Shown here in pieces: positions 29,060 to 59,863 of a DNA stretch of 64,000 bases. The stretch's first letter is position 1; each line of letters starts with the position of its first letter. The notes beneath the pieces were generated by a model. That model made no database searches. It had not been told where the DNA came from and saw only the letters and a list, made by a program, of their open reading frames with translations. Origin of the DNA: Mobula birostris (lineage: Eukaryota); the NCBI RefSeq assembly GCF_030028105.1, contig NC_092395.1, positions 28,302,424 to 28,366,423 of the forward strand. The letters are read 5' to 3'. The position numbers and the translations under genes were made by a program.

Positions 29060-29300
29060 CCCACACACCCAATGGATGGAGCTTGGTGGGAAGAAGTGAT
29101 ATGGCTTTAAAAAATAACAAGAGCATTTTTTTGCAGTATTATCTCTCTGATTGGTGGAGGAACGAGGCTCCTCCTCCTTGTCCCTATTGGTCGAATGTGT
29201 CTGATTGCACTAGTAATTCGCTAGTTTCATACAGAAACAAGCTCTGACGGCGTTTAGGGCAAGGCAGGAATTAGAGATATTTCAGCGAGAGACGGGGAGA
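29060..29300 (+). promoter_or_regulatory. Candidate distal ARRDC2 promoter (exon 1a)
   Basis: CCAAT at 29069, inverted CCAAT boxes (ATTGG) at 29150 and 29186, CpG enrichment over about 29240-29900, unique sequence directly 5' of exon 1a. Confidence 0.55.
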
Positions 29301-29465: not shown

Positions 29466-29724
29466 ATGAAAGTGGGAAAGATCAGAAGGTTCCTGCTGGT
29501 CACAGACAGGATGGAGGACGCGGTGTACACCAGGGGTCAGCCCGTTTCTGGCCGAGTGATCCTCGACCTCCGCGCTACGGTCCGGGTTCGCTCGCTCCTG
29601 GTCTGTGCAAAGGGGATAGCTGCGGTACACTGGCTGGAGAGCCGGAGTATTGGCATGAACACTGTTTACTCCGATTACAGCTCGTACGAAACCTACTTCA
29701 AGAAGAGGCTGCACGCAATTCGAG
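29466..29724 (+). CDS. ARRDC2: ARRDC2 alternative (distal) coding exon 1a, start of the arrestin N-domain (MKVGKIRRF...VSGRVILD...VHWLESRSIG...KKRLHAIR)
   Basis: ATG at 29466 (aacATG), 86 codons plus 1 nt, donor G|gtgagc at 29725. Phase 1 joins exon 2 (G+AT = Asp). The peptide resembles my recollection of the alternative N-terminus of mammalian ARRDC2 (HWLEGRSVG...SDY...ETY). Confidence 0.85.
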
Positions 29725-32700
29725 GTGAGCCCGATTCACGCTCTGGGTACGGGGGTCCGGGGGGACAACTGGTCGTGAACGATGCCTGTGTGTCAGAGAG
29801 AGAATCTCCTTGTGTCGTGACTATATTGAGTGACCAGGTGTGCCCTGTGTGGTATATGGATGCCGGGGCCACTTAATCTGAGTGCATCCGGGAGTTGGGC
29901 TATTTATCCTAACGCATGCACTTTGAATTTGACGAGGTAGGCAATCAACCAGGAAACAATCGGCGTCTCCCTGGGCTGTTGTGTTTAATGAAAACTGTAA
30001 TCATACTAACAATGCCGTCGCAGGGTCCTTCACTAAATCTGTTACCTTCGTTGATAAGTCGGTTTTCTTAAAACATTTTTTAAAAACGCGAAGTTTGTTT
30101 GTTCTAGTGCTGAATCTTGCTCCTGACATTCCCTATATTGACAGCTGGTAACAACAAGGCCGGCGAATGCACTGTGTGCAAAGACACGTCTGCACCCGAA
30201 CACACTGCTCGGGGCGTTTCTCTGGCCTTGCGCCTCTCCCATCTCCTGCAGCTAGTGTTTATCGCACAACCGACACCACCAATGCGATTTATTGTGATGA
30301 TACAGTTCCTTTTCAGCTTCACTGTGTCTGACAGAAAAAAAGTGCCCAGTGTATGTACGACAGACAGTTCCCTTTAAACAACTGTGCACATCTGCTGTTT
30401 TGGGGGCGTTACAAAGCACACATGAATTCCTGCCTCTAACTACCCTGACTATACGAAGTGCTGTCTGCTCTATCCTGGCAGGTAAGCGCCCTCACACTGT
30501 TGACGAGCACAGAGGTATGCGTAGTTACATTGAGAGCGACAAACTTTTCACACTTGTTGAAAGAATGCCTGAAAATAGTTTAACTTTCTCTTTCGTAGCA
30601 TGATTCGCTCTGGCGCCCCCTTTGAGATGAGTCCTGTGTAGCCAGCGGCCTCTTCTCTGTATGCAGCCATCCAGTTCGTCAAGGCTGGGTGCCAACTGGA
30701 CCACAGTACGGAACCTCTCCCCGGCACTGCAGATTCATTTTCAGTGTTAGGAGTGAGAGCTCTGATCTCGGTATCCAGGAAGAAGCTGCGTTGTCAGCAT
30801 ACCCCACCCACGGGAATTCTGGATTTACAATGGCATCTAGTGTCGGCTGTGATGTGGGGTAGCACTCTCGCCTCTTGCCTTTGAAGGTGCTGGGCAACTC
30901 CCACTACTGAGATATCACCTAAATCCAGACTGGTTCTCTCTGTGCAGTCCCGAGGAAGTTTGTAACCCTTGACTTACTTATGATGATGCAAAGGAGGCCA
31001 TCCAGCCCATTGGGTCTATGACAGCTCTCATCAGTCCCATTTTCACTCCTTATTTCCCTAAATCCCTGTCACTTTATTCAGTTTCCCCTTGGATTATTTT
31101 TGCCCCTCGCTTATTTGGGATAATTCTTACAGTGGGCTGATTAGCTTGCAATTGTTTGGTATGTGGGAGGAAACCAAGGCACCTGGGAAACCCGCCCAGT
31201 CACGGAGAGAATGGAGACTCTGTACAGACAGCACCTGAGGTCAAGTCAGGCCAGCTCTGAGTCACTGGGAAGTGGTGGGGCAGCAGGCTTTAATGTGTTA
31301 CCCAGCACTCCTGAGACATGCTGAAATGTTGGGGTACCTCCCTTGAGTGAGAGATTAGACAACTCTCCTCTGGTGGATATGGCCATTACACGTGTAAGAA
31401 CAAGTCTCACAGCCAATGATTACCCCCCCCTCCCCACCCCAAGTAAGCATCCGTGGATGCTGGCTGTGCAGGAGTTAGCTGTGGTAGTTCCTACATCACG
31501 ACCATGATTACAGTTCAGTTGATTGCAAAGTGCATTGGGCTGTCCTGGAGTTGCAGAAAACACTGAAAACTAAACAACAGAGGCTGCTGATAAAGCATCT
31601 CCTGGTTTGCTGATGCCGCTCACCACAGGAGATGTACTCTCTTCTGCAGCCTAATGGAGACATAGCCAAATTAGTATTTAGTTTCACAACTTCAGGACAT
31701 CTCAGATAAGAATAATTACGGCCCCTGTAGTGGCTTAAGATGAATCAAATCCTGAGAGTTATTTCAAATTAAATCCACACCATGGATATCCTCTCACTTT
31801 GATGGAGATTACTTTTATCAAATCAAGTTATCTTCTCCTTCCCTTCCATTTGTTCCTCCCCTGAGCTCCTGGAGCTGTTTTCTACACTAAAGGAGCTCAA
31901 CAATGCAAGATGATAGAAACGCCCTGGGCAGAGTGTTGGGGTGCAGACGTGTCTTTGCTGCACAATCTGAGGGGCACGAAGGGTAGGTGCAGTATTGGCA
32001 CCAGGCTGTGAAGCAAGGGCTTGGAATCTGGGAAATGCCGTGCACCTCAACTTCACGGTCCTGAAATGTGGTCCCGGTGGATGCTGCTGCTGACTGTGGA
32101 GTGTGGATCGGTGAGATCTAGTCCGACCTGCGCCCTGCGTCACCAGTTCTGCTCGGACAGACCCCCTGTGGGCTGCACCTAATCACTTGGCCTGTACAAT
32201 CCTGCCACGTCAGGCACTCAACCCAGCCCCTGATCATCGGGAAGCTTCCTTCATCTCATGTGAATGCTCGGAACTCAACAGATCTTCCTAATGTTCCATT
32301 TGTAAATTAATAACCTCTCCAATAACTTTTTGCCCGGGACTTGTTCCACAAAGTTATGAAATTAATCCCAGAAAGCTACTTGACCCATTAATGCTCTATG
32401 TACATATATCCCATCCCTGTGCACTTCCCCTATAGTCCTGCAAATAATTTTCTCTTGAATACCTGCCCATTTCCATACTGAATCAGAACCAGATAGCTTA
32501 TCACTGACTTTAATGACATGAAATTTGTTGCTTTGTGGACAGCAGTCCAGTTCAAAGACAGGATTATTGTAAATTACATTAAAAATAAAGGTTGCAAAAG
32601 AATGGAACAATGAGATAGTATTCATGGACTGTTCAGAAATCGGATGACAATGAGTGCCTGTAAGAGAGCTGAAATTAGATCAGTAACTCGGAGTTGCTGA

Positions 32701-33343
32701 ATAAAAACCTTTTCTCGTTGCACTATGCTGGCATCCCCAGGGCAGACCAGCCCCTGCAGAGCCAGCAGCTCTTTGGTTCACCTTCCTTTGCCTGCCGCCA
32801 CTGGTTTAGATTACATGGAATGTAGAAATGATGCACTACTGTTTTATCTCAGACACCAGAGCAACGGGTTCAGACTCCATCCGTGCCTGTGCGTTTATCT
32901 GTCCCTGAGAGCCTAGGGTAAGGCAGGAGGGAGACAGTCTCCTGGTTTGTTCTCTATTGCCACCTGCTGGATGGTGCCTGGAGCCTATGGAAACATGAAC
33001 ACGGATAGAAAGCCATTCACGACACCTGATCATAAGGCTGGCTGACGGGAGCACTGCATCAGTATCTGGCTTGTGCTCGGACGCTCGTGGTGAATTTGAT
33101 CCACAAAAGTGAAATTTCTAGCACATAACATCTTGATCTCAATGTGGTTATGTAGATCTCTCATTGAGAGTCAGGATTTTGATGGCTGTTGGCCATAGGA
33201 GGCTTTGGGTAAAGAATTCACAATGAATATCTCCCTTGGCATCAGGATTCCCAACAGTATGTTGTCTGCAAGTGAGCACTTCAGATGTGCAGACATTGTT
33301 GAAATGGGGCAGCAAAGCTGCACACAGTAAGATCCCACAATAA

Positions 33344-36300
33344 TAGAAACATAGAAAATAGGTGCAGGAGTAGGCCATTCGGCCCTTCAAGCCTGCACCG
33401 TCATTCAGTATGATCATGGCTGATCATCCAACTCAGAACCCCGTACCTGCCTTTTCTCCATACCCCCGATCCCTTTAGCCACAAGGGCCATATCTAACTC
33501 CCTCTTAAATATGGCCAATGAACTGGCCTCAACTGTTTCTTGTGGCAGAGAATTCCACAGATTCACCACTCTCTGTGTGAAGAAGTTTTTCCACATCTTG
33601 GTCCTAAAAGACTTCCCCTTTATCCTCAAACTGTGACCCTTCGTTCTGGACTTCCCCGACATCAGGAACAATCTTCTTGCATCTAGCCTGTCCAATCCCT
33701 TTAGAATTTTATACATTTCAATAAGATCCCCCCCTCAATCTTCTAAATACCAGTGAGTATAAGCCTAGTCGATCCAGTCTTTCATCATATGAAAGTCCTG
33801 CCATCCCAGGAATCAATCTGGTGAACCTTCTTTGTACTCCCTCTATGGCCAGAATGTCTTTCCTCAGATTAGGGGACCAAAACTGCACACAATACTCCAG
33901 GTGTGGTCTCATCAAGGCCTTGTACAACTGCAGTAGTACCTCCCTGCTCCTGTACTCGAATCCTCTTGCTATGAATGCCAGCATACCATTCGCCTTTTTC
34001 ACCGCCTGCTGTACCTGCATGCCCACTTTCAATGACTGGTGTATAATGACACCCAGGTCTCGTTGCACCTCCCCTTTTCCTAATCGGCCACCATTCAGAT
34101 AATAATCTGTTTTCCTGTTCTTGCCACCAAAATGGATAACTTCACATTTATCCACATTAAATCGCATCTGCCATGAATTTGCCCACTCACCTAACCTATC
34201 CAAGTCACCCTGCATCCTCTTAGTATCCTCCTCACAGTTAACACTGCCGCCCAGCTTCGTGTCATCTGCAAACTTGGAGATGCTGCACTTAATTCCCTCG
34301 TCTATGTCATTAATATATATTGTAAACAACTGGGGTCCCAGCATTGAGCCTTGCAGTACCCCACTAGTCACTGCCTGCCATTCTGAAAAGGTCCTGTTTA
34401 TTCCCGCTCTTTGCTTCCTGTCTGCCAACCAATTCTCTATCCACATCAATACCATACCCCCAATACCGTGTGCTTTAAGTTTGCACACTAATCTCCTGTG
34501 TGGGACCTTGTCAAAAGCCTTTTGAAAATCCAAATATACTACATCCACTGGTTCTCCCCTATCCACTCTACTAGTTACATCCTCAAAAAATTCTATGAGA
34601 TTCGTCAGACATGATTTTCCTTTCACAAATCCATGCTGACTTTGTCCGATGATTTCACCACTTTCCAAATGTGCTGTTATCGCATCTTTGATAACTGACT
34701 CTAGCATTTTCCCCACCACCGATGTCAGGCTAACCGGTCTATAATTCCCTGGTTTCTCTCTCACTCCTTTTTTAAAAAGCGGGGTTACATTAGCCACCCT
34801 CCAATCCTCAGGAACTAATCCAGAATCTAAAGAATTTTGAAAATTTATCACTAATGCATCCATTATTTCTTGGGCTACTTCCTTAAGCACTCTGGGATGC
34901 AGACCATCTGGCCCTGGGGATTTATCTGCCTTTAATCCCTTCAATTTACCTAACACCACTTCCCTACTAACATATATTTCCCTCAGTTCCTCCATCTCAC
35001 TAGACCCTCGGTCCCCTACTATTTCCAGAAGATTATTTATGTCCTCCTTAGTGAAGACAGAACCAAAGTAGTTATTCAATTGGTCTGCCATGTCCTTGTT
35101 CCCTATGATCAATTCACCTGTTTCTGACTGTAAGGGATCTACATTTGTCTTAACCAATCTTTTTCTTTTCACATATCTATAAAAGCTTTTACAGTCAGTT
35201 TTTATGTTCCCTACCAGCCTTCTCTCATAATCTTTTTTCCCTTTCCTAATTAAGCCCTTTGTCCTCCTCTGCTGGACTCTGAATTTCTCCCAGTCCTCAG
35301 GTGAGCTGCTTTTTCTGGCTAATTTGTATGTTTCTTCTTTGGAATTGATACTATCCCTAATTTCCCTTGACAGCCACGGCTGCACTACCTTCCCGGGTTT
35401 ATTCTTTTGCCAAACTGGGATGAACAATTGTTGTAGTTCATCCGTGCGATCTTTAAATGCTTGCCATTGCATATCCACCATCAACCCTTTAAGTATCATT
35501 TCCCAGTTTATCTTAGCTAATTCACGTCTCATACCTTCAAAGTTACCCTTCTTTAAGTTCAGAACCTTTGTTTCTGAATTAACTATGTCACACTCCATCT
35601 TAATGAAGAATTCCACCGTATTATGGTCACTCTTACCCAAGGGGCCTCGCACGACAAGATTGCTAATTAACCCTTCCTCATTGCTCAATACCCAGTCTAG
35701 AATGGCCTGCTCTCTAGTTGGTTCCTTGACATGTTGGTTCAGAAAACGATCCTGCATACATTCCAAGAAATCCTCTTCCTCAGCACCTTTACCAATTTGG
35801 TTCACCCAATCTATATGTGGATTGAAGTCACCCATTATAACTGCTGTTCCTTTATTGCACACATTTCTAATTTCCTGTTTATTGCCATCCCCAACCTCAC
35901 TACTACTGTTAGGTGGCCTGTACACAACTCCCACCAGCGTTTTCTGCCCCTTAGTGTTATGCAGCTCTACCCATATCGATTCCACGTCCTCCAGGCTAAT
36001 GTCCTTCCTTTCTATTGCGTTAATCTCCTCTCTAACCAGCAACGCCACCCCACCTCCTTTTCTTTCATGTCTATCCCTCCTGAATATTAAATATCCCTGA
36101 ATGTTGGTCACCCTGGAGCCATGTCTCTGTGATCCCAACTATATCATATTCATTAATAACTATCTGCACTTTTAATTCATCCACCTTGTTACGAATGCTC
36201 CTTGCATTGACACACAAAGCCTTCAGGCTTGTTTTTATTACACTCTTAGCCCTTATACAATTATGTAGAAAAGTGGCCCTTTTTGACTTATGCCCTGGAT

Positions 36301-36552
36301 TTGCCGGCCTGCCACTTTTACTTTTCATCCAACTACTTTTTGCTTCTACCTTCATTTTACACCCCTCTATCTCTCTGCACTTGTTCCCACCCCCTTGCCA
36401 CATTAGTTTAAATCCTCCTGAACAACAGTAGCAAACGCTCCCCCTAGGACATTGGTTCTAGCCCAGCCCAGGTGCAGACCGTCCTGTTTGTTCCGGTCCC
36501 ACCTCCTCCAGAACTGATTCCAATGCCCCAGAAATTTGAATCCCTTCCCCTT
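33344..36552 (-). mobile_element. Young CR1 LINE: end of ORF1 (esterase-like) plus near-intact ORF2 (APE endonuclease and RT)
   Basis: 806-aa open frame 33718-36138 with GVVYRPP, MGDFN, SDHN, YLDFQKAFDKVPH, KFADDTK. N-terminus NARSIRNK/ITETWL and C-terminus lie in adjacent frames. (ATAGAAAC)n tail at 33344. Confidence 0.97.
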
Positions 36553-37002
36553 TCTATAATTAAAGAGTTAGTTATATAATCAGGTGATAATAATTGCCAG
36601 ATAATAAACTTTCGTCATGCTAGCTGAGAAATACGTATTGGTTCAGGGGATCTCTAATCTTTTCAAAACAATGGCTGTGGGATTATTTCCAGCGAACTAA
36701 CAAATTTAATATTTGTTTGAAAGTTAATGAAACAATCATGCCAATGTACTGTTCATCTGAAGGATCATAGAATAATATTTTCATAAAGGGAGAAAAAAAT
36801 GTTCAGACTATTTTTGCTGGATTTTTGAGCAGGGGTGATCATGAATAATGTTTTTTTTTGTCCCTCAGTGCACTTTTTCCTTGCCAGTCTCATTTATTTT
36901 AAAAAAAAAGCTTTACATCCTTCTCTTGAGAAGATACAACTCGGAGATCAGAACCATAACTGTAAGCTTGGCAAGGACCTGAAGGCCACTGTCTCATTCC
37001 TG

Positions 37003-37127
37003 CCGAAGGATCTCGGCCCGAAACGTCGACTGTACTTTTTCCCATCGATGCTGCCTGTCCTGCTGAGTTCCTCCAGCATTTTGTGTGTGCTACTTGGAGT
37101 TCCAGCATCTGCAGAGTTTCTCTTGTT
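37003..37127 (+). mobile_element. Short Penelope-terminus insertion with a 13-bp TSD
   Basis: TGTCTCATTCCTG at 36990-37002 and 37128-37140 flanks ...ggcccgaaacgtcgactg...cctccagcattttgtgtgtg... Confidence 0.85.
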
Positions 37128-38151
37128 TGTCTCATTCCTGTCTCTGTGAAACATTATTAGGGGTAATGCGATATGAAGGGTATAGATAGGGTAAATGCAA
37201 GCAGGCCTTTTCCTCTGGGTTTGGGTGAAACTAGAATTAGAGGTCATTGGTTAAGGGTGAAAGGTGACATTTCAGGGGGACTTGTTCACTCAGAGGGTGG
37301 TGATTTCAACACCTGAAGAGAAATTCGGGTAAGTACATAGATGTGAGTGGTGTGAAGGGCTATGTGCCAGGTGTGGGTCAATGGGGCCAGGCAGAATAAT
37401 AGCTCAGCATGGACAGGATGGGCTGAAGGGCCTTTATCTGTGCTGTTATGCTACGATACTCCGTGACAGTGCATAGAATACACACAGTTTGTCCAGAGGC
37501 CAAGCTCTAGAATTCATAAACACGGGCGTGGTAGAGCAGTAAAATGTCACGTACCACTGGAGTTGCTTTCCCCCGCTACCCTGCTCTGTTCCTGCCACCG
37601 CCGAGGTTCCCATTGACTGGCAGCTCCTAGCCCACATGGTCTGAGCTCACTCTGCTCACGGCTCATGGCTGGACACTCTCTCTTAATGACAAGACTGCTT
37701 GTCCACCAGCCAACATTGCAGCAGCAGAAAATTCCACCAATTTATTATCAGAAGAGGTCACCCTCCATTCTTCCCCATTGTACACTCTGTTCCCTGGCTG
37801 TTGAATCCATTCATCTCTGGCACCTCCCCTTGGTTAAACAAAGTTGTTTACAAACCAAATTGCTTCATAATTGGCCTTCAGATGTCGAAAATGTTGTTTT
37901 GCCAAGATCCCCACATTTTCCTCCCAACATGGCTTCTACAAATCATCGTTACAGCTGAATCAGACTATGTCATCGCTCCTCACGACGTCTGTTGTCCATT
38001 CCGTAAAGCTGAGCTCACCTGACATTGCTGCTCATATCCGTACTAAGTCCATTGACTCATCGTTCTGTGGTTTGACACCTCTGCTGGCTCCTAAGGCATC
38101 TTAATGGCAGCTTCTGTCACCATTTTAAAATGTGTCTGTCTATCTGCCCCT

Positions 38152-38715
38152 ATAGAACATAGAACATGGAAACCTACAGCACATTACAGGCCCTTCAGCC
38201 CACAACATTGTGCCGACCATGTAACCTACTCTAGAGACTGCCTAGAATTTCACTACTGCATAGCCCTCTATTTTTCTAAGCTCCATGTACCTATCTGAGT
38301 CTCTTAAAAGACCCTTTTGTATCCACCTCCACCACCGTCGCTGGCAGCCCATTCCACGCACCCACCACTCTGTGTGAAAAACTTACCCCTGACATCCTCT
38401 CAGTGACCATTTCCAAGCACCTTAAAACTACGTCCCCTCGTGTTAGCTATTTCAGCCCTGGGAAAAAGTCTCCAGCTATCCACGTGATCAATGTCTCTCA
38501 TCATCTTATGCACCTCTATCAGGTCACCTCTGATCCTCTGTCACTCCAAGGAGAAAAGGCCAATTTCACGCAACCTATTCTCATAAGGCATATCCCCCAA
38601 TCCAGGCAACATCCTTGTAAGTCTCCTCTGCACTCTCTCTGTGGTTTCCACATCCTTCCTATAGCGAGGTGACCAGAACTGAACACAGCATTCCAAGTGG
38701 GGTCTGACTAAGGCC
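38152..38715 (-). mobile_element. CR1 3' fragment
   Basis: Similar to 40720-41290, with an (atagaac)n tail. Confidence 0.85.
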
Positions 38716-38774
38716 ACCACACAATTGCTGTAATTTCCCCAGTCTTCTCATTGTCCTGCCTTCCCGTTTTATTT

Positions 38775-38975
38775 GGAGATACAGCCCGGTAACAGGTATT
38801 TGCGGCCAATGCCGCTGGAGTGACCAATTAACCTACTGACCCTTGCGCCTTTGGAAGCCCCTGGAGGAAGCCCACGTTGTCACGGGGAGGACGTACAAAC
38901 TCCTTACAGACCGCGGCAGGTCTGAACCCGGGTCACTGGCGCTGTGAAAGCATTACGCTACCATGCCGCACGCAT
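38775..38975 (-). mobile_element. V-SINE
   Basis: Reverse complement of ctgtaaggagtttgtacgtcctccccgtgac, plus a tRNA-like head (gcatggtagcgtaatg...ggttcagac). Confidence 0.7.
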
Positions 38976-40716
38976 CCTTCTGCCCGTTTCCATTTCCCAT
39001 GCTTTCTGCTGCCTGTGCTCCCAACCCGCAATCTGTCTCTCGCCTCAGTTCCTTGCGTGGCTCGGTGTGGGATTTAATTAGGATCAGGCGCTTCAACAAA
39101 TCTTTACGTTGGTGATGGTCACTGTTCCTTGGAAGTGCTGATGCAAGTTTCGGCGTGACGCATCGACACCACTGCTACATCTGGATGATACCTGGATGTC
39201 GTCGCGGATCACTTGAGTGTTAGTTGTCTCACAGTTCGCGCCCCCTCTCCCCCAGTTAGAGCCATGGATGATCCCAGTGAAGAACCTGATCAGGAAAATA
39301 TGGGACACGGGGGAGGGAGAGAGAGGGTGATGTAGGAACTGGGTGAACCTTAAAATACAACAGGCAGAGGGCGAAACGATACATTTTTAGACACCCGCAG
39401 GCCCATTTAAAAATGAAGGATCCCATCCCCTCCCCTCCCCCATGAGAATGTGCTGTGTCAACACCGAGACGTGACATGGGGCGGGGACAGGACATTTTTA
39501 AGGACGTCACTACGAAAATATCGGCAGTGTGTTCAGTACAGATTATTACGATGCTGACAATGCCAGCTGGTTTCGATGCGGTTTCTGCAAGATAACCATT
39601 CCTTTAAACAGCCAAAACAAGCGCGGAGTAGCTGCGATGTTTTCAGAGATTATGTTCCCTATTCTAGATTCCTGTTTCTGAGAACAAGTCTGCAAATTCA
39701 GAACACATGTAAGACCACACGATATTTACTCTTCCTTTTTGCAAATTATCCAACAGAAACTTGGTCCAATTGTCCTCCGCCAAAGATGCATTCAGTCTTT
39801 ATTCCGTGTATAATAAACACATGCATATGTCTCATTTTAAAAGAGTAGTACTTGTTATCGGTGATTTCCGCTGTGTGCGTCTATAGGGTGCCATACCCGG
39901 AAGAGAAGTGGCCAATCAAATGCGCTTCAAAAACTGGAGTTTAAAAAAAGCAGCAGCAGTTGCCACGGTGACTGTCTATTGCACACCTGAGCGTTCCGGC
40001 TTGAGGGGGAAATGATTAAAGACATTTGTTGCAAATCCGCAGAATTGCTACAGTAAATTAAAAGTTTTTTTTCAAGATATTTTAAAATCAGTAAGGCCTC
40101 GAAAAACAGATTTTTCTCCAGCTTTCAAGAAAAGAGAGAAAAATTTCACCAAAGCAAAAAATAAATTTCATTCAACCAACCGTATTTCTATCATCCCTTT
40201 TACCATTTCGAGACATAATTGACATGAAGTGGTTAAAGGGACGACAGAAATATTATTTAAAATACACTTAAAGTGTGAGTAATTTTATAATGAAGGACGC
40301 GTGGGTGTGCATGAGGTGACGACATCAGTTGGTCTATTTTTAGAGCATTAAAGTAACGTCCTATTCGGTTTCAGACTTTGTACGTGACTAAACCCTCATT
40401 CTAGACTCCATTATTTAATCAAAACTCTTTTCTGTAGAGCAGAGTACCACAAAGACTTTTATAGGCATTACCAGAAGGCACCTAGATACGTGACGATAAG
40501 CCTAGGAATTTGGCTATAATTAGCATCTCAGAGGTGGGATCTCCCAGGTGGAGATGGAAGAGGTACCGTGTGGGTTTTAGCGAAGAAATTCCGGAGACTG
40601 AGGTAGTGATTAAAAATTGGGTTGATCAAGAGCACCTGGGATGTAAAGAAACCTGGGCTAGAGACACAGGGTGTGGCAGTGCCAGGAAACGATTGAAAAG
40701 CAGGTTGCAAGATGTC

Positions 40717-44715: not shown

Positions 44716-45804
44716 CTGTCATACTGAAGCGTTGCTTGACTGACGTTTAATCTGAGTCAGCAAGCACATTTAATTTTTTTTTTAAATTTCTTTAGGATAT
44801 GGATATTGCTAGCAGGACTGGCATTTATTGCTCCAACGATACACGAGGAATAAAATCAGCCTGTTGCAGTCAGTGCTGTTGAATAAGGAGTGCTGGGAAA
44901 TCCACCCAGTGACGATAAGGGGGTCTATTGAGGATTACGTGACTTGGAAGGGTTGGTGACCCTCTACATCTGAAAATGCCTCTTTCTCAATGGTAGGGAC
45001 AGTGATTATGAGAGAACCTCAAGTTCGTGGTGCACTGCACCCCGCAGATAAATTGCAGCCACTGGTGGAGAGCATTCGGACTGGTTGCATCACACCTTCG
45101 TGTGGAGATGCCAACGCAAAGCAAAGCAAAGGGGCTTCAGAGGGTCGCAGACTCAACCAGCTCCATCACAGGCACAACCCTCCCCACCATCAAGGACATA
45201 TTCGCCGGGCGGGGGGGGGGGTGACTCAGGAAGGCGGCATCCATCATTAAGGACCATCGCCTTCTCGTTACTACTACCAGGGAAGAGGTACAGGAGCCTG
45301 AAGACCCACACTCAATGATCCAAGAACAGATTCCTCCCCCTGTCATCTGATTTTTGAATGGTCCCTAAACACTACCTCATTGTCCCTTTTTAACACGATT
45401 TTGTGCACTTTATGCAGTCCTGGGTAGGTCTGTAGTCTAGTGTATTTTTATGTTGTTTTTTACGTAGTTCAGTGTAGTTCTTGTATTGCTCATGTAGCAC
45501 CATGTTCCTGAAAAACGTTGTCTCGTTTTTACTGTGTACTGTACCAGCAGTTGTGGTCGAAATGAGAATAAAATTGACTTGACCTGACTTATTTTATAAT
45601 TTAGAGCCACCTTTATGGCTCGGCACTGTGTAACTGCCGCGAGGGGAAAAAACACATCATCACTGTCATAGAAGATGGGACAAGAAATTCTGCTTCTGAT
45701 GTTTAAAATGATGGTCGGAGGACCAGTCAACCACCCTGCTTTGTCCTGGACGGTGTTGAGAGACTTCAGATTTTTTTTTTTTGGAGCAGCAACTATAGGG
45801 TTGT

Positions 45805-46170
45805 GTCATCATCATGATCATGTGCCATGTCACATGATGTGGACAATCATAGTTAATGACCATAATTGTTTTTGCCAATTTTTTTTTCTACAGAAGTGGT
45901 TTGTCCTTGCCTCTTCTGGGCAGTGTCTTTACAAGACGGGTGACCCCAGCCTCAATCCTCTTCAGAGATTGTCTGCCTGGTGTCAGTGATGGCATAACCG
46001 GGACTTGGGATATGCACCAGCTGCTCATATGACCATCCACCACCTGCTCCCATGACTTCACATAACCCTGATTGGTTGCTGCACCTTGCCCGAGGGTGAC
46101 CTGCGGGCTAGCGGCGGGAAGGAGCACCTTACACCTCCTTTGGTAGAGACGTATCTCCACCCACTCCCAC
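45805..46170 (-). mobile_element. RTE-derived SINE
   Basis: Plus-strand cagaagtggtttgtccttgcc (reverse of the RTE/BovB GGCAATGGCAAACCACT motif) and a (cat)n tail. Confidence 0.5.
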
Positions 46171-47462
46171 CCAGTGTATTTATCATGCAATTTGTGGTCA
46201 TGATGGAAAGACTTTGTGGTGTCAGGAGGAAGAGTCGGGCTACTCAAGCTGTGACCTAGCGATGAATGGCTAGATTCTTGTTGGAGACAATCACTTGATG
46301 GCACGTGTGGTGTGAGTATTACTGAGTCTGTTTATCCAGGTCTTGTTGCAGGTGAATGAAAGGTGAATGGGGCTTGGTGCAAGTTGGGACATGAGCAACA
46401 ATGATTAGGACCGATCTAATTTATGGACCATGTCAAAGGTTAGACAGATTGGGAGGGCAAACAAATCACAATACGTCGAGATTACAAAAGCACAGGTGAG
46501 GGTCTCAGTGCAGTTGAGTTCTTGAAATCGTTGGTGATTTTCCCCATAGCCAAGTAGCTTGCGTGGACATAACGGCTTGCTGGACAAGGTGCAGGAAGTC
46601 ATGGTCATGGAGTCATTCAGCAAAGATACAGGCCCTTCAGCACACCCAATCCAGGTAAACCACCCAGCTAGATCTAATTTCCTGCATTCGGCCCATATCC
46701 CCCAAAGCACCACCCCTCCGTGTACCAATCCAAGAGCTTCTGGAATGATACTATTGTACTTGCCTGTGGCAGCTTGCACTATATACTCCAGACCCTCTGC
46801 ATGAAAAATGTTGCTCCTCGCTTTCCTTTTAAATATTTCCCATCTCACCCTAAACCTGCGCCCGCTAGTTTTGGATTCCCCTGCCTGGGGGAAAGACTAT
46901 TACCATCCGCCGTATCTGGGCATCTCAGAATTTCCAGTATGGCCATCCTTCATTCTCTTACGTTCCAAGGAATAAAGACGCAGCCTGGCCAACCTCTCCT
47001 TATAAAGTGTTTATCCAGGTCGTCGTCCTATGATGGCCACCAGCATCCCTGTGGTCAGAAAGGGAAAATCCCTGTGGGAGAGGATACTGCACACAGCATC
47101 TATTGATTCCCTCCCATGGGACCGAGTAAAACAAATCCTTCCCAGCATCACAGACATTCACCGTGGAATACCCGGCCTGAGATGAGGTCTACAAGCTGCA
47201 GCATTTATGTGGCTGCTGTGGCTGAGTTTCTGGCCAGTGGTGACTTTTAGGATCCTGGGCAACCTTGGCGATACTTTGGTTGAAATCTGGTTGAGCACCA
47301 GAGGAATAGGTTTCAAGATTCAAGATGGTTTGTCATTCTTCGGTACGCAAGAGTAGAGGAGAACAAAACGATTGTTACTCCAGATCTGATGCAGCAAAAG
47401 TAAACATACAATAAGCACGAAACACAATAAATATAAATACGTAAGATTAGCGGATATACATA

Positions 47463-47950
47463 GACTCAGCAGCCACTTTATTTGGTAACTCCGGAATTGA
47501 ATACAGTGGCCACTGAGGGTGTGTTTGTGGTCTTCTGCTGCTGTAGCCCATCCAATTCAAGGTTCGACGTGTTGTGGGTCCGGAGATTCAATTCTGCATT
47601 CCACTGTTGAATTGTGTGGTTAGTTGAGTTACTGTCACCTTCCTGACCTCGCTCATTAACAAGTCACGTCGGCCAAAATGTCTGCTGCTCACCGGATGTG
47701 TTTGTACTCTAAACTCTAGAGACTGTTGTGCAGGGAAAATCCCAGGAGATCAGCAGTTTCCAAGATACTCAAACCACCCCGTCTGGCACCAACCATCATT
47801 CCATGATCAAAGTCACTTAGATCGCGTTTCTGATGATTGGCCAAACAACAACTGAACCTGCTTTTATGCGCTGAGTTGCTGCCACATGATTGGCCGATGA
47901 GATGTTGGCGTTAACGAGCAGGTGCACCTAATAAAGTGGCCTCTGAGTGT
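47463..47950. mobile_element. Non-autonomous Tc1/mariner-type element
   Basis: Inverted termini actcagcagccactttatttggtaac / gtgcacctaataaagtggcctctgagt with TA-like flanks. Confidence 0.7.
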
Positions 47951-48299
47951 GTACCAAGCATATGTACATGAAGTCTCTCTAGGTACAGGAGTATCTAAAC
48001 AAAAGGCGACTCTGACAGGAAATGATAAAGTAGTGGTGTTTTGGCCTGGGACAAAAAGTTTTGCTTAAAAAATGAACACCAACACGGGGCATTTGGGCCA
48101 GTGGACCTGTGTCTAAGGTATACTATACGTGTAAGAAATGAGCTTCTGAGTCAAACTGCCCTGAAAGGAAAGGATTCTATAACTCTTTGAACAGATTTGC
48201 ACTGTTGCTGTGTGCACAATTTCTACGATAACTTACAAGAATGCTGTTCCCTCCGCTCAGTTGCTCTGTCTCTGACGTGCCTGTTCTCACGACCAGACT

Positions 48300-48830
48300 T
48301 CCCATTCCAGGAAGTCCAAGGTTCTCAGAAAACAGGGTTTCCCCTCCACTGCTACCAATGCAGCTATCGTCCACATGTCTGCCCTCACCCTGTACCTCTT
48401 TCCTGCAGCATAACGGGGAGAGGCTACTGCCTCCAAGTCCAACATATCACCATACTCTGCAACTTCTGCCATCTCCAACTACATCCCGTCACTGGGCACA
48501 CTTTCCCCTGTGTGCAGGGATTGCGCTGTCCATGACTTGACTTGCCTTCAGCCTCCCCACCAGTCTCCCTCCAGGTACTTATCCCTAAAGCCACACCTGC
48601 CCCTTCACCTCCATTCAGAGACCTAAACAGTTCTTCTAGGTGAGGCAGCAGCTCACATGTCAATCCTCTGAGTTCATCTGTCGTATCCAGTGCTCTCAGT
48701 GCAGCCTCCTCTACTTCAACGAGACCCACACAGTCTGGAGGATTATTCCATCGAGCACCTTGGCTCTGTCTGCCAGAACAGCCAGGATCTCCTGGTGGCC
48801 AGCCATTTTCATTCCATTCCCATTCCCACA
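48300..48830 (+). mobile_element. Penelope GIY-YIG fragment
   Basis: LTCQSSEFICRIQCSQCSLLYFNET, homologous to 21243-21330. Confidence 0.75.
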
Positions 48831-51049
48831 CTGACGTCTGAGACGTTGTTTTACTTTCAGAATGCTTGTGTGTGGAGTCCTTCTTGTGAATTGTGCTGTC
48901 TGTTCATTTCCTGTAATTCAGGGGAACTCCTTCAGTCTTGGGTGTGGTGAGCGTCCCATCCAGGTTTAATCAGGATGAAACCAGTTTCAATTTTGAATCC
49001 AGGGCAAAGTGGAGATTATTGCATTAAAAGTAGATCATTTAAGCATTAAAATACTTGGAGTGATAAAAAACACGTTGCACAGTGTGTGGTGGGATTCAAG
49101 AGCAGTTCCCATTACAGGGGAACAGTAGATTACACTGGACAACAAAGATTTTGCATCCTGAATGCTTTTGGGTGTATCTGATGTATTTTTAGCTGTTGAT
49201 CATGAAAATCACCAAGAAATTTCCTTCACGTGCACCATTTTAAAAAAAAAAGCGCCTATATTTGTTATTTCAATTCATATTTCAACTCAATTAAAATGTT
49301 GCCTACAGTGTAAGCTGAGAAGTTATCTATCTTGTCTAGGCATGCCTGGGCATGCTTAGACAGGGCGGATGCTGCACGGCAGGACAAGTTTTAGAAAGGC
49401 TATGAAAATGTCATACACGCGCAGTTCTATGCATTGTGTTAACATGTATATCAGTTTACAATGACGTCAATGCGCTTCCTCTGCACGCATAGTATATTCT
49501 GTGTACTCATTATAACAAAGTAATTGTATTTATAGGAGTATTTGTGATAGCAAAATGTCTCACCAATGGTGTAACAGCCCCAATATTTCTGTTATATTTG
49601 TGGTGAGTATGTGCTTAAATCTCAAAGACGAAACATGGCCTCTCTTATTAAGAAAGCCCATGAGTGCCACTTTGGGCGTAAACTTGGCTGCCGGGACAAA
49701 GCCTGGGCTCCTCTCATTTGCTGTGCAACATGCGCTGTCAATCTCTGAGCCAAGCTCTAAGGGACTCGGTAGTCAATGCTGTTCACTGTCCTGATGATAT
49801 AGTGAGAGCAGAAGGCTCGTGACAGACCACTACTTCTCTCTGACCAGTCTTAAACCTGGAGTTTAAGAGCATTCAGAGACTCTGCAAATGGTTCCATGGT
49901 ATGAGGCAATTTGGCCCATTGAATCCATACTGGCTCTATTCCAGGGCAATTGAACTAGTTTTAGCTTTGGGTACTTCTCAGCACCAGCTTCTTGCAGGTT
50001 CAAGTCTGTGCCCCATGGGCACTGCCTAATGGTTTTTTAAAAAAAAACTAAGCTAGTCTCTTTCCCCCTGACCATTGAAATTCTTTCCTGTTAAATACTG
50101 TACATACGTGGTTCTCTTTTGAATGCTGCATTCATACTCCCTCCCACTATTACCCCTGGCAGTCCATTTCAGATCCTAAACACTAGCTGTGCTTTTTTTT
50201 AAAAACATACTTGTGACACTCTTGGTTCTTTTGCCAATCACCTTTTTCCTATGTGTTTTTCTGTACACTTTTCATGTACTTTTGACTTTACTAGCAGAGA
50301 AGGTTTCTCTGTTTTTATCATCTCATGTCTTTAAATGCCCTTATCAGTTCTCTCTGTAATGTCCTCTGTTCTGTGGAGAACAAACCTAACTCTAGTCAAT
50401 CCTCATAATTAAAGTCCCCCATCACTGGAATAGTTTTGGCAAAAAGCTTCTGAGCCTTCACAGTTTTCCTAAAGTGTACTGACTAGAACTGGACATGAGC
50501 TCTCCAGTTTTGGCTGAACCAGTATTTTATAAAGGTCCATTGTGATTTCTCTTGAGTGTGGTAAAAATCCTAAGAACAACAAGAGCAAGTTATGCACCAG
50601 TCATTTCTTACTTTTGATATTGCTGATGTGCCTTCAGAACTTGATTATACAAATCCATCATGTTTTTTTTTTGTATGTGGACAATACTGCAAGATTGGCA
50701 CTTCTGGTCTTTTCTTAACTGCCTGTAAATTGAGGCAATATTTCAGAGCAAACTACATCAGCAGACCTGGAGTCACATAGAGATAGGTCAGGTTGCACCT
50801 GGGGAGCAGATTTTCTTCATTAAGGGATGTTAATGACACCAGTAGGCTTTTTAATAACAAAACCTTCAAATGGTATTGATCATGATTAATGCAACTATTT
50901 TCAGCCAGGGTTAATACAAATGATTGATGAGTTTTGAATTTGTATTACTGGATCAAAGGTTCAGATTTCCGGTTACTGGTGTGATGAATTAGCTTCAGTA
51001 CTTTTGAAAATCTCTACATTTGTACTTGTATTTAAAATTTCCTACCAAA

Positions 51050-51610
51050 TGAGGCCCTCCGTCAGTCGGGGTCAACCATGGGATGTTGCATCCCAGTTGT
51101 CTATACAATACGCAAGGCAGGACAGTACGATTTGGGGATCAAGCTGTTGCCCACGTAGTAGGCTTCCCCCCCCCCAAACACACAGCTGATGAATCCAAAG
51201 GACTGGCAGAGGCCAATACAGTTTGGCATCAGTGGCATCGCAGGAGTTGGACTCAACATAGGGATGCCAGCTCTGGATTTTTCCCTCGGGGTTTACTCCT
51301 GAAGCCTTTTGCACGAGTGGGTATAGCTGCAATCTAGCAGAGGTTTGTGATCAAAGTTATCCCTTCTCCTAGATGAGCTGCCAACCTCGGCTGACTCAGC
51401 TCCATCTGCCTGAAACGACTGGTTTCAAGGTGCCAGAAAGCCTCCTTTCCCCCTTCTTCTGTCTGTAGAAGTGATTCTGCCGTGCTTAGTATCTAAGCCC
51501 CGCGTGAAGGTCAGGAGCTGGACTTGGTTGTCAGAGGCTGTTTGAGACGCGCTATTGGGAGCTTAACTCCATTACCTCCCCAGGCTATACGGTAACAACT
51601 TTAAGAAACC
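51050..51610 (-). mobile_element. Non-coding interspersed repeat, probably RTE-derived
   Basis: GC-richer block with abrupt edges in AT-rich intron, no credible ORF. Family assignment and strand are tentative. Confidence 0.4.
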
Positions 51611-51799
51611 AGTGAATTTTCTGCCAGTTTGAGCTAAACACCACCAGAGGGCACCAATGCTCATCTTCTGATTTACAATTGGCAACAAAAATACAGGTGT
51701 ACAGTACTGATGTTGTGTTTCATAGCAAAGATCCGGTCATCAGGAATATGACTTCTGAAGTACTGTCACTCTTGCTCCCTGCTTTTAAATTTCTGGGTG

Positions 51800-52310
51800 T
51801 ACAGTACTTAGGCACATATATGTATAGCTAGGGTGCGTAAGACTTTTGTGCCGTACTGCATTTGTCAATATGGAATGGGGAGCGAGTTTGGAAATCTGGT
51901 GAGATCAAAGGATGTTGGGAATGGCGAGGGTAGGGTGCCTCGGGAAGGGTGGGGTGAGATGCCAGTGGTGGGGTGTAGTGTGAGTGCAGACACACCCAGC
52001 CCAGAGAGAACAGGCAAGGTTATTCGATTCCAAACAATTGATTTATTGATCACTGTAAAATGTCTCTCTAGCGCTTCCCTCGCCCTCCCCTCTCCCTTCC
52101 TGTTTTCCCAACCATGATTCTCCTCTCCCTTCCCCTTTTCCCAACCATTATACCACTCTCCCTACCCCCTTCCCACTCTCAGTCCACAACAGAGACCCAT
52201 ATCAGATTCATCACTCATGTCATAAAATTAGTTTTTTTTACATGGCAGCAGTACAGTACAATACATAAAATTACCACAGTACTGTGTAGAAGTCTTAAGG
52301 CACCCTAGTG
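51800..52310. mobile_element. Composite repeat carrying Tc1-like terminal sequences
   Basis: ctagggtgcgtaagacttttgtgccgtactg (about 51828-51858) and its inverse cagtactgtgtagaagtcttaaggcaccctag (about 52277-52308). Confidence 0.55.
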
Positions 52311-52319
52311 TGCGCGCTG

Positions 52320-52358
<39 letters not shown>

Positions 52359-52371
52359 GTGTGTGTGTGTG
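52320..52371. repeat. Compound (CT)n(AT)n(GT)n microsatellite
   Basis: Directly visible. Confidence 0.95.
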
Positions 52372-52829
52372 CTGCTTTAAATAATATAAAAATATTTTAA
52401 ATAAATGTGGCACAGTGGTTGTTACTGAGCTAATGATATGGGATTCATCGACTCTGCTTTGGTATTCAAATCCTCTATTCATAATCCTGGAAGTATTGCA
52501 TTAAAAAAACAAACCAGTGATGTGTACAAAACTACCTGATTTTTGGTTCACTAATTCTCCAGGGAGGAAATCTGCCATCCTTGCTGGTTATGACGTCAGC
52601 CTTGCCAATGAAATTGTCACCCTCAAATCACCTAGTGAGCCCCTCAGTTGTACTAAAATATTGAAAGGGAGTCAAACTGGACGAATCCAGTCCCCCAACC
52701 CACCCTGCAAACGGTCTATGTACCAATATTCCTCATGGCCCTCAAATATTTGAGGTGTTTCAAAGAGTTGTGAAGTGGCGGTCTGACACAATCATTGTGT
52801 CTTCCTGATTGTTACTATGGGACCTCCGC

Positions 52830-53190
52830 ATAGAAAAGGCCCAGACAGCGTGGATGTAGAGAAGATGTTTCCTGTAGTGGGGGAGTCCAGGACCACAGAG
52901 CACAGCCTCAGAACAGAAGGACATCCCTTTAGAACAGTGAGGAGGAGATATTTCTTTAGCCAGAGTGTGGTGAATCTGTGGAATTCACTGCCACAGATGG
53001 CTGTGGAGGCCAACTCCTTGGGTATAGTTAAAGTGGTAGTTGATAGGTTCTTGATGCGTAAGAGTGTTAAGGATTATGGGGAGAAGGCAGGAGAATGGGG
53101 TTGAAAGGGGTAATAAATCAGCCATGGAATGGCAGAGCAGACTGGATGGGCCAAATGGCCTAATTCTGCTCCTATATCTTATGGTTTTAT
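52830..53190 (+). mobile_element. CR1 3' fragment
   Basis: VDVEKMFP...FFSQSVVNLWNSLPQ with a cttatgg tail. Confidence 0.85.
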
Positions 53191-54679
53191 GGTCCCCACC
53201 CAATGTGGAACATGGGAGAATAATCTTAAACATTGTGCGTAGGCCCATTGGAATCACACAGCATTGGGCCAGCCATGCAGAGGAGGTAGTGGCAATCCTC
53301 CATGTCGAATAATGCTTGAAGAAGCGCCGAAAATAGAGGGACGTTCTACGTGGGGCCTCACTGTCCATCACCAAGAGTGCCATGGTGACCATCACCACTG
53401 ACCGAGTCCTGAAGGGTTGTGTTTGTAGCAGGGAGCAAGTGAACCAAGAGGTAAATGTCCACCCTACCTGTGCAGGCACACAGTGGAGACAAAGCCTTGT
53501 GTTCACATCTTGCTGAATGGCACCTCGAAGGTGTTCACCAGGATAAACTTCCAACGGTTTGCTCTAAACTGAACCTCCAGGGGGCGCTGTGGGCCATTAG
53601 CAGCAGAGATGCACACTACCACAATCTGTAACCTAATGGTCCAGCACATTACTCCCTCGATCCTCAGTAAAAATCCAGGGAATCATCCTGGTTCAATGGA
53701 AAGAGTGGAAATGCTGGGAGCAGTCCCGGACATAGTTGAAAACAAGTTAGCAACGTAGTGCCGTCCCTACAAAAGCAGAGGGCACAGGGAACACCACCAG
53801 TTGCAAGTTCCCCTTCAAACTGCACACAATCCAGATTTGAAAATGCCTCACAGATTCTTCACTGAGGAGTATAAATCTGGGAATTTTCTACTACCCAACA
53901 GCACTGGATCAGTTCATAAAGATGACTCCCCAGTGACATTTGGGATAGTAATAAATGCTGGTTTTGCCAGCAATGTCTAGGTCCAAAGACTTATTACTTT
54001 TTAAAAAAATTATATTATATATATATCTTGCCAAACTAGTGGAATAGACAAAGGGAATCTGTTTAACCTCCTAACTAAAAATAAAATTTCCATAATTCTC
54101 TTGAGCATATCATTCAAGAAAACGTCTTTGTGAGGGATTTTATTTGTTTGCAGCCTCTTTTTTAATAACAATGTGATAACTGAAAATGTTACAAAAATGT
54201 TATATTGCTGGTATACAAAAATAATCTGTCGAGGAATTCCATCTTTAATTTACAAGAGTGACAAGAAAACTGGAAATCGCTTTGAATGGCGGGGGGGGGT
54301 GCTTTTACTTGATGTGACTTATTGAAAATATGCTTTAAAATTATAATAATAGTCGTCTTGCAGTACTTCTCAGAACGCTAGATTTCATTTGAATTATGTA
54401 AAATAAATTAAATAAAATAAAGTAAAATAAATTATTTCGTAAAACCTAAAGTCATTATGCTTGAAATGAGCAATTTGGTGGATTGCTGCATAGATCACTT
54501 ACGGTATCAAAATTAAGTATAACTCAATAAGTAAAGGTAATTGCAAAAGTTCAAAGAAAGTAGTCACAAGTCTGGCAACTTTTCCAGAAGTTTACGGACT
54601 TTCCCTCGAAGTTGTTTGTTTCTAGGGCTCGATGTTTTCTCTGCTTTTTTTTTTATCCTGGCTGGAATCTCTCGTGATG

Positions 54680-54985
54680 TTTTCCTTCCAATGGGCGGAG
54701 AGATTCTGTCTTTAACGTCTAACTAATCCCAGGCTCGGGTTTTAACCCGTTCATTTTTCAGCTTTAAGAAAAACAAGCGAGGTGTGGTACGGTGGTGCAT
54801 GCGCAGTGTCACTTGTTTTTCTCTCCTTGCGATCTGTCAATCAAGCTAGCAAGAAGCTGTCGCCTCATGCTCCGCTGCTGATTGGACAGATTAGTGGACG
54901 TCTCTCTAATTTACTGGTCGAACCTATCTGTCAGTCTGTCCGCGGCCCGCCTTCCGCGATGCGGAGCCTATATTTAAAGTGACAC
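54680..54985 (+). promoter_or_regulatory. Candidate proximal ARRDC2 promoter (exon 1b)
   Basis: CCAAT plus GC box at 54688-54698, NRF1-like TGCATGCGCA at 54796-54805, ATTGG at 54881, TATA-like TATTTAAA at 54971-54978, CpG-rich through exon 1b. Confidence 0.7.
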
Positions 54986-55078
54986 ACACCCAGAAGTAAG
55001 GTAGTTTGCTTTCTTGTCGTGCCGGTCAGTTGGCAAGTAGTCGACAGTTCGAGATTCAATCAAGCCGAAAGCGCAGAA

Positions 55079-55352
55079 ATGATTCTAGAGAAGCTGAAGA
55101 CTTTTTCACTGATATTCGACAGCCCCGATCCCGACTCGGTGCCTGTGTACAGCACTGGCGATGAAGTGTCAGGCAAAGTTGTCCTGGAAGTGACCCGGCC
55201 AATGAAAGTGCAGTCCCTGAAGTTGCACACCGAGGGCTACGCGAAGGTGCACTGGACCGAGTCTCGGAGTGCCGGCTCCAGCACGGCTTACACCCAGAAT
55301 TACAGCGATGAAGTGGAGTACTATAACAAGAGGGTGAACCTCATCCAAGCAG
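55079..55352 (+). CDS. ARRDC2: ARRDC2 proximal coding exon 1b (MILEKLKTFSL...VHWTESRSAGSSTAYTQNYSDEVEY...)
   Basis: ATG at 55079, donor G|gtcagc at 55353, phase 1. HWTESRSAGSSTAYTQ is the characteristic ARRDC2 N-domain segment. Confidence 0.95.
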
Positions 55353-59130: not shown

Positions 59131-59200
59131 ATAACGGAAATTTCACAGTTCTCCAGGCTGGTCGTCATGAGTTCCCATTCAGCTTCCAGCTTCCTGAAGA
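59131..59200 (+). CDS. ARRDC2: ARRDC2 exon 2 (DNGNFTVLQAGRHEFPFSFQLPEE)
   Basis: Acceptor cttttttcag, donor gtgagt, 70 bp, phase 1 to 2. Contains the alpha-arrestin GRHEFxFSFQLP motif. Confidence 0.95.

Positions 59201-59620: not shown

Positions 59621-59863
<243 letters not shown>

What the first reader, a model, noticed from the sequence alone, without database searches (positions are those of the whole stretch)
29466..55352. ARRDC2 has two paralogous, mutually exclusive coding first exons 25 kb apart that swap the first part of the arrestin N-domain
Seen: exon 1a (86 aa) and exon 1b (91 aa) align along their length (K.+.F.L..D; VY..G..VSG+V+L+; V.SL; G.A.VHW.ESRS.G; YS...Y+.KR+). Each has its own ATG, CCAAT/CpG promoter and phase-1 GT donor compatible with exon 2. 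Knowledge: I recall human ARRDC2 having two isoforms with analogous N-termini (MLFDKVKAF... and MRSGGVRSF...). Inference: an internal exon duplication predating the shark/bony-vertebrate split has been kept, so promoter choice would change the cargo-binding surface while keeping the same PPxY/NEDD4 tail. Exon 1a is markedly more basic (many Arg/Lys) than exon 1b (Asp/Glu-rich), which hints at different ligand or membrane binding.
Basis: partly seen in the sequence, partly recalled or inferred. Interest (0 to 1): 0.7.

Follow-up and report, generated by a model that had tools for sequence, protein, structure and literature searches.

The report
ARRDC2's two ancient alternative first exons
In this ray the ARRDC2 gene has two duplicated first exons, each spliced to the same rest of the gene and each conserved from sharks to mammals, so promoter choice likely swaps an exposed binding loop of this protein-sorting adaptor; the human pair is already catalogued, and its function appears untested.

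Summary
Real, ancient and already catalogued. Exon 1a (29466-29724, 259 nt, 86 aa) and exon 1b (55079-55352, 274 nt, 91 aa) are paralogous phase-1 first exons (34/91 identical). Both join exon 2 in frame. Transcript-like contigs show 1b>exon 2 in 4 of 4 runs and 1a>exon 2 in 2 of 4. One run instead appears to splice 1a to an intronic terminal exon at 30599, giving an 87-aa stub (inferred); one shows 1a only unspliced. 1a forms its own clade (100/99) from chimaera to mammals. The human exons have the same lengths and order and are listed as event 17 in the supplement of PMC8373072. Added here: 8 of 12 fixed differences between the exon classes lie in 1a residues 57-76, the best-conserved segment, a predicted hairpin loop placed like the beta-arrestin finger loop. 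That is a better lead than net charge, which is only modestly higher in 1a outside cartilaginous fish. A change of cargo is inferred, not shown. Whether the duplication predates the vertebrate genome doublings is unresolved. In passing, an ARRDC3-like locus in this genome carries 4+3 first-exon copies.

The parts
29150..29190 (+). Two reverse CCAAT (ATTGG) words upstream of exon 1a; putative promoter 1a
   Evidence: motif scan; contig 5' ends at 29237-29334 (contigs cannot show a start)
29466..29724 (+). Coding part of first exon 1a (86 aa, phase 1): predicted N-domain strands plus a class-specific hairpin loop
   Evidence: joined to 59131 in runs X1 and X18; 1a clade 100/99
30599..32600 (+). 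Inferred intronic terminal exon reached from exon 1a; adds Ala plus stop (87-aa stub); polyA words at 32578 and 32584; end approximate
   Evidence: the offsets of X3 contig 21 predict a resume point at 30599, exactly after a pyrimidine tract plus TAG, and an end at 32563. The junction letters themselves were not displayed.
29725..55078 (+). 25.4 kb between the two first exons; LINE-like reverse-transcriptase fragments (label by eye); no remnant of downstream ARRDC exons
54881..54978 (+). ATTGG (54881) and TATA-like word (54969) in a CpG-rich stretch; putative promoter 1b
55079..55352 (+). Coding part of first exon 1b (91 aa, phase 1), the ARRDC3-like copy
   Evidence: joint to 59131 in 4 of 4 runs; 1b clade 97/88 in the reduced tree
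59131..59200 (+). Shared exon 2
59644..59791 (+). Shared exon 3
60322..60424 (+). Shared exon 4
61547..61800 (+). Shared exon 5
61943..62105 (+). Shared exon 6
62986..63149 (+). Shared exon 7 with both PPxY motifs (PPDY, PPIY); skipped in one X3 contig
63981..64000 (+). Start of shared exon 8; runs past the window end
   Evidence: joint 63149>63981; last residues in L009

Best explanation
ARRDC2 has two homologous coding first exons, each spliced to one shared set of exons 2-8, and choosing between their likely separate promoters would give two alpha-arrestin adaptors that differ in the first half of the N-domain and likely in which membrane cargo they recognise. The pair arose by one tandem exon duplication before cartilaginous and bony vertebrates split (shown). 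1b kept the ARRDC3-like sequence; 1a fixed its own sequence in the long hairpin loop at residues 57-76 and has kept it since (shown). That loop sits where beta-arrestins have the receptor-engaging finger loop (inferred from predicted strand order and recalled topology). Both forms keep the C-domain and the two PPxY motifs that recruit NEDD4-family ligases (sequence shown; ligase binding known from family literature). So the same ubiquitin machinery would be aimed at different partners (inferred, untested). In this ray, 1a transcripts can also end at an intronic exon, which would lower full-length 1a output (inferred from one contig).
For: In-frame phase-1 exons. Junction 29724>59131 seen as a 28-nt loose end in X1 and X18, two studies and two organism codes, and reciprocally from exon 2 in X1. 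Junction 55352>59131 in 4 of 4 runs. 1a-type ARRDC2 proteins are named in chimaera, sharks, skate, teleosts, frogs, salamanders and turtles and in bichir, cobra, donkey and chinchilla. 24 of 24 1a rows form one clade at 100/99; 9 of 9 1b rows at 97/88 in the reduced tree. In 5 of 5 species each window exon is closer to its own class (44-66% and 48-69%) than to the other (31-43%). The human exons are 259 and 274 nt in the same order. 8 of 12 class-fixed columns lie in 1a residues 57-76; residues 55-73 are the best-conserved segment in both classes (0.84 and 0.96 against 0.56-0.77). The models put a long low-confidence loop there between two strands; the N-domain of the 1b model matches ARRDC3 4R7V at Z 15.8, rmsd 3.5, 133 aligned.
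Against: No binding or localisation data for the 1a form were found. The catalogue's proteomics cell for ARRDC2 is empty. 1a>exon 2 was displayed in only 2 of 4 runs, with 28-nt overhangs, below the tool's 31-nt bridging rule. X3 appears to splice 1a into the intron and X4 shows it unspliced. The runs are only guessed to be RNA. A mouse striatum study lists Arrdc2 among genes with a single mRNA form (PMC4869301, passage). 1a is less conserved than 1b and the shared exons in every species compared. The models are low-confidence (pLDDT 50 and 62) and gave no residue-level match to the finger loop. Spea and Pelodytes models include both exons in one protein.
Confidence: 0.62

Rival explanations
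1. Regulatory subfunctionalisation only: the two exons are kept because their promoters serve different tissues or signals, and the two proteins do the same job.
For: The promoters share no DNA similarity. The beta-sandwich core positions are shared between classes. ARRDC2 mRNA answers to glucocorticoids, exercise and drugs in different tissues (review PMC9105457, passages).
Against: It does not explain why each class holds a different, nearly invariant loop sequence across jawed vertebrates, or the same-direction charge difference in 7 of 7 species pairs.
Confidence: 0.27
2. The 1a promoter mainly makes short or unspliced transcripts, and full-length 1a protein is a minor by-product. Exon 1a matters as an attenuator or as an 87-aa stub.
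For: Inferred intronic terminal exon at 30599 with polyA words; unspliced contigs in X1 and X4; empty proteomics cell for the human event.
Against: Length, frame and phase of 1a are kept from ray to human. Full-length 1a models are annotated in many species. A stub would hold only the first five predicted strands of the N-domain. The 3 substitutions seen in related organisms are 2 silent and 1 Val>Ile (too few to test selection).
Confidence: 0.08
3. Exon 1a is a dead remnant of a neighbouring duplicated gene, or an annotation artefact.
For: Whole-gene tandem duplicates of ARRDC genes do occur: G000:C21 and a divergent Pleurodeles ARRDC2-like gene.
Against: No leftover downstream exons between 1a and 1b; spliced junction to exon 2; a conserved clade across jawed vertebrates.
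Confidence: 0.03

Closest known systems
Human ARRDC2 N-terminal tandem duplicated exon substitution (event 17; ENST00000222250 and ENST00000379656; PMC8373072 supplement)
   Same: Orthologous event: exons of 259 nt/86 aa and 274 nt/91 aa in the same order. The human 1a peptide equals the first 86 residues of P0225 (compared by eye), which sits inside the 1a clade.
   Different: Spacing is about 6.7 kb in human and 25.4 kb here. The catalogue dates the event to 'Chordata'; I found no 1a-class exon in cyclostome or amphioxus hits, so only jawed-vertebrate age is confirmed here. ARRDC2 is not named in that paper's main text.
RefSeq 'ARRDC2 isoform X2' models in cartilaginous fish, teleosts, amphibians and turtles
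   Same: Exon 1a joined to the shared exons; up to 84% identity to the window exon.
   Different: Automatic annotation with no function attached. Spea and Pelodytes also have 1a+1b tandem models of 492-494 aa.
ARRDC3, ARRDC4, TXNIP (paralogous alpha-arrestins)
   Same: Same fold and eight-exon layout (PMC5501109, passage); PPxY tails; ARRDC3 exon 1 shares the 1b state in 7 of the 8 loop columns.
   Different: Each has one first exon in the stretches read in this genome: 70 kb for ARRDC4, 50 kb for TXNIP, and about 50 kb between ARRDC3 and its upstream neighbour.
UGT1A-type variable first-exon loci
   Same: Homologous first exons with their own promoters and a constant C-terminal part; the first exon sets specificity (PMC9013439, passage).
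   Different: ARRDC2 has two exons, not an array, and a specificity role is untested. The C21 ARRDC3-like genes resemble the array form more.

Membership tests
Tandem duplicated exon substitution, N-terminal type (PMC8373072) | Two homologous coding exons in tandem in one gene | tested here: met
   34/91 identical, score 152 against shuffled max 49
Tandem duplicated exon substitution, N-terminal type (PMC8373072) | Each replaces the other at the same downstream splice site and phase | tested here: met
   both phase 1 to 59131; junctions in 2 of 4 and 4 of 4 runs
Tandem duplicated exon substitution, N-terminal type (PMC8373072) | Each exon is more like its counterpart in other species than like its sister exon | tested here: met
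   5 of 5 species; trees
Tandem duplicated exon substitution, N-terminal type (PMC8373072) | Separate promoters and transcription starts | tested here: inconclusive
   CpG, CCAAT and TATA-like signs; no upstream exon among the loose ends displayed (32 rows not shown in each); contigs cannot show a start
Alpha-arrestin, ARRDC2 orthologue | Arrestin N- and C-domains | tested here: met
   PDB sequence hits TXNIP and ARRDC3; orthologue model against 4LL1 Z 16.6 (rmsd 12.4, 251 aligned) and 4R7V Z 15.8 (rmsd 3.5, 133 aligned)
Alpha-arrestin, ARRDC2 orthologue | Two PPxY motifs in the tail; eight exons | tested here: met
   PPDY and PPIY in exon 7; seven introns per isoform
Alpha-arrestin, ARRDC2 orthologue | Closer to named ARRDC2 than to its paralogues | tested here: met
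   shared exons 85% to Callorhinchus ARRDC2; ARRDC3-, ARRDC4- and TXNIP-type genes lie on other contigs (labels by sequence likeness)
Alpha-arrestin, ARRDC2 orthologue | Binds NEDD4-family WW domains and cargo | not testable with these tools
   family knowledge only (PMC3517545, passages)
Strict mutually exclusive internal exons (MXE) | Internal exons excluded by a splicing mechanism | tested here: not met
   both are ATG-bearing first exons; the strict definition excludes alternative-promoter events (PMC8373072); frog models include both
UGT1A/protocadherin-type variable first-exon array | Three or more homologous first exons on one constant region | tested here: not met
   two copies in 114 kb at ARRDC2
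Beta-arrestin-type finger loop | The loop between the long N-domain hairpin strands engages the receptor core | tested here: inconclusive
   loop predicted at the matching place with pLDDT under 50; papers say alpha-arrestins have a finger-loop region without giving residues; the residue mapping is recalled

The most novel reading that the evidence does not exclude
Exon 1 is the swappable specificity module of alpha-arrestins. ARRDC2 has kept two versions of the finger-loop-equivalent hairpin through jawed-vertebrate history, giving humans an unstudied seventh alpha-arrestin N-domain with its own cargo. The split may be older than the ARRDC2/3/4/TXNIP duplications. The same trick recurred independently as a UGT1A-like array of 3-4 first exons at an ARRDC3-like locus in rays.
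Probability: 0.3. Interest if true: 0.62.

Novelty: already known. Interest (0 to 1): 0.33.

Why it matters
How alpha-arrestins pick their cargo is poorly understood. The two ARRDC2 isoforms are a natural swap: same C-domain and ligase-binding tail, different N-domain hairpin, each held nearly constant across jawed vertebrates. Comparing them tests directly whether that loop selects cargo. It also means that ARRDC2 expression and interaction studies that ignore the first exon may mix two proteins. The event itself is catalogued, so the value lies in the testable lead and not in discovery.

Tried and rejected
(1) X3 was first counted as 1a>exon 2 support, then dropped: its contig offsets point to an intronic exon at 30599. 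(2) No RNA holder listed: none of the 21 runs is on record as RNA. Contig depths differ between runs but were not used, as the tool says they cannot rank parts of a gene. (3) Dating against the vertebrate genome doublings: 1a falls outside 1b+ARRDC3+cyclostome exons at 94/78 and 93/71 (unstarred), and a 1a+1b clade is not rejected (AU p 0.30 and 0.27). The second tree left out 18 of 54 rows and added 3 outgroups. Unresolved. (4) No 1a-class exon among the cyclostome and amphioxus proteins held. These come from the best 150 of 1192 hits of one search plus cluster look-ups, so absence is weak. (5) dN/dS could not be run: no orthologous DNA, only 3 substitutions. (6) No ChoRE- or GRE-like words near either promoter. 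(7) In-frame AG sites upstream of the 1b ATG exist (5) but have weak pyrimidine tracts (8-10 of 20), and no 1a>1b join was displayed. (8) The 1a model was too poor for surface analysis (pLDDT 50; Foldseek TM about 0.2). (9) The Atlas search gave only 'Arrestin_N'; Rfam gave nothing; earlier scan findings gave nothing. (10) Ten literature searches (listings and abstract starts only, except the papers cited) showed no functional study of the 1a isoform and no description of the C21 array. Subscription papers are not covered. The ARRDC3 N-lobe structure paper was not held. The PMC9741552 supplement held as text was only 15,271 characters and had no ARRDC hit. bioRxiv supplements were not seen.
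Full report
Observation. The window holds an ARRDC2 gene of a cartilaginous fish; exon 1a groups with the skate Leucoraja at 95/87, so a ray. Exon 1a runs 29466-29724 (259 nt, 86 aa) and exon 1b 55079-55352 (274 nt, 91 aa). Both end in phase 1 at GT donors, and both read in frame through exons at 59131, 59644, 60322, 61547, 61943 and 62986 without a stop. The last exon starts at 63981 and leaves the window. The two exons are 34/91 identical, with a local score of 152 against 23 +/- 4 for 2000 shuffles. Each has CpG-rich surroundings and CCAAT words, 1b also a TATA-like word, and the promoters are unrelated in sequence. No third copy lies in 114 kb around the gene, and no remnant of downstream exons lies between the two.

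Expression. None of the 21 runs listed is on record as RNA, but the four laid show GT..AG joints at the shared introns. 1b>exon 2 is seen in 4 of 4 runs. 1a>exon 2 is displayed in 2 of 4 (X1, X18; two studies, two organism codes) as 28-nt overhangs that equal the start of exon 2, in X18 with one difference, and in X1 also from the exon-2 side. These overhangs are just under the tool's 31-nt rule. X4 shows exon 1a only running into the intron. X3's contig leaves exon 1a at the donor. Its internal repeat offset places the resume point at 30599, exactly behind a pyrimidine tract and TAG, and its end at 32563, 15-21 nt before ATTAAA and AATAAA. I infer an intronic terminal exon that yields an 87-aa stub; the junction letters were not displayed. 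So the 1a promoter has more than one product.

Conservation. Exon-1a-type ARRDC2 proteins are named in Callorhinchus, sharks, skate, teleosts, frogs, salamanders and turtles, and in Polypterus, Naja, Equus and Chinchilla. In a 54-row, 88-column tree all 24 1a rows form one clade (100/99), mammals included. In that tree the 10 1b rows were not monophyletic, because ARRDC4 and TXNIP rows fell among them; with 18 rows removed and 3 outgroups added, 9 of 9 formed a clade at 97/88. In 5 of 5 species each window exon is nearer its own class than the other, but 1a is always somewhat less conserved than 1b and the shared exons. The duplication therefore predates the split of cartilaginous and bony vertebrates. 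Its place relative to the ARRDC2/3/4/TXNIP duplications is open: 1a falls outside them without starred support, and a 1a+1b clade is not rejected (p 0.30, 0.27). No cyclostome or amphioxus protein held here scores as 1a, and ARRDC3, ARRDC4 and TXNIP have no 1a-type exon in the stretches read. Spea and Pelodytes gene models join 1a to 1b in one 492-494-aa protein, so exclusivity may not be strict everywhere.

What is swapped. Models of orthologous isoforms (Heterodontus 1a, pLDDT 50; Callorhinchus 1b, pLDDT 62) put five to six strands in exon 1, with a long low-confidence loop between the last two. The 1b model matches the ARRDC3 N-lobe at Z 15.8, rmsd 3.5, 133 aligned. Among 24 1a and 10 1b rows, 12 columns are fixed (75% or more) for different states; 8 lie in 1a residues 57-76. 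Residues 55-73 are the best-conserved segment of both classes. ARRDC3 and hagfish rows share the 1b state in 7 of those 8, so 1a carries the derived loop. By strand order this loop lies where beta-arrestins carry the finger loop. The residue mapping is recalled, not computed. Passages in PMC12213294 and PMC10398895 say alpha-arrestins have such a region, and PMC5156545 describes its receptor-core binding in beta-arrestins. Net charge is higher in 1a in 7 of 7 same-species pairs, by 11 in this ray and by only 3-4 in frogs, bichir and donkey, so charge is the weaker lead.

Mechanism. Shown: two first exons, one constant region, two PPxY motifs, long-term conservation of two distinct loops. Inferred: separate promoters, and different cargo or partners for the two proteins (0.62). 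Rivals: promoter-only subfunctionalisation (0.27), 1a as mainly an attenuated or stub transcript (0.08), remnant or artefact (0.03).

What is known. The supplement of PMC8373072 lists ARRDC2 as event 17, N-terminal, with human exons of 259 and 274 nt in the same order, an empty proteomics cell and 'Chordata' as last common ancestor (rows seen; passages of the main text, which does not name ARRDC2). It is one of 40 N-terminal events among 236 (PMC9741552, passages). RefSeq annotates the 1a form widely. Other papers were seen as passages only: PMC9105457, PMC3517545, PMC5501109, PMC2515105 (no ARRDC2 mention), PMC10206516, PMC9013439, and PMC4869301, which lists mouse Arrdc2 with a single mRNA form. 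Ten searches showed no functional comparison of the isoforms; subscription papers and bioRxiv supplements were not covered.

Side finding. Upstream of the ARRDC3-type gene on G000:C21 lie two duplicated ARRDC3-like genes (blocks mostly 91-99% identical). One has four and the other three phase-1 first-exon copies, of three types 77-86% identical, each set ahead of a single set of downstream exons. Their exons group with ARRDC3, not 1a, so this is an independent expansion. RefSeq models show only the nearest type spliced; the others were not tested.

Verdict. Observation confirmed; history supported; functional consequence plausible and untested; already known as an event. Interest 0.33.

Noticed in passing
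G000:C21:5492436-5713842 (L010-L032): Two tandem ARRDC3-like genes with 4 and 3 first-exon copies (three types; the copy at 5646555 has a TAG) ahead of one set of downstream exons each. A possible UGT1A-like variable-first-exon array, or partly an assembly duplicate. Splicing of the upstream copies untested.
   Followed up: partly
window 30599-32600: Inferred intronic terminal exon used by exon 1a in run X3, giving an 87-aa stub; X1 has an unspliced contig running to about 32424.
   Followed up: partly
window 62105>63981: One X3 contig skips exon 7 (164 nt, both PPxY motifs), a frame-shifting skip; only 20 letters on the short side.
   Followed up: no
P0007, P0044 (Spea), P0038 (Pelodytes): Annotated frog isoforms splice exon 1a into exon 1b in frame, giving two tandem half N-domains.
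   Followed up: no
window 33718-36138 (-), 40929-44047 (-), 1323-2784 (-): Long LINE-like reverse-transcriptase open frames (one of 806 aa stop to stop) and fragments; label by eye from the translations.
   Followed up: no
P0187, P0257 (Pleurodeles): A divergent extra ARRDC2-like gene whose locus tag (NDU88_005651) is close to that of ARRDC2 (NDU88_005654), suggesting a further tandem duplicate.
   Followed up: no
P0153 (Chinchilla): The rodent exon 1a has a longer branch (0.28) than other mammals (0.02-0.04), and a mouse study lists one Arrdc2 mRNA form; possible relaxation in rodents.
   Followed up: no
window 5447-5601: One run of N; outside the gene.
   Followed up: no
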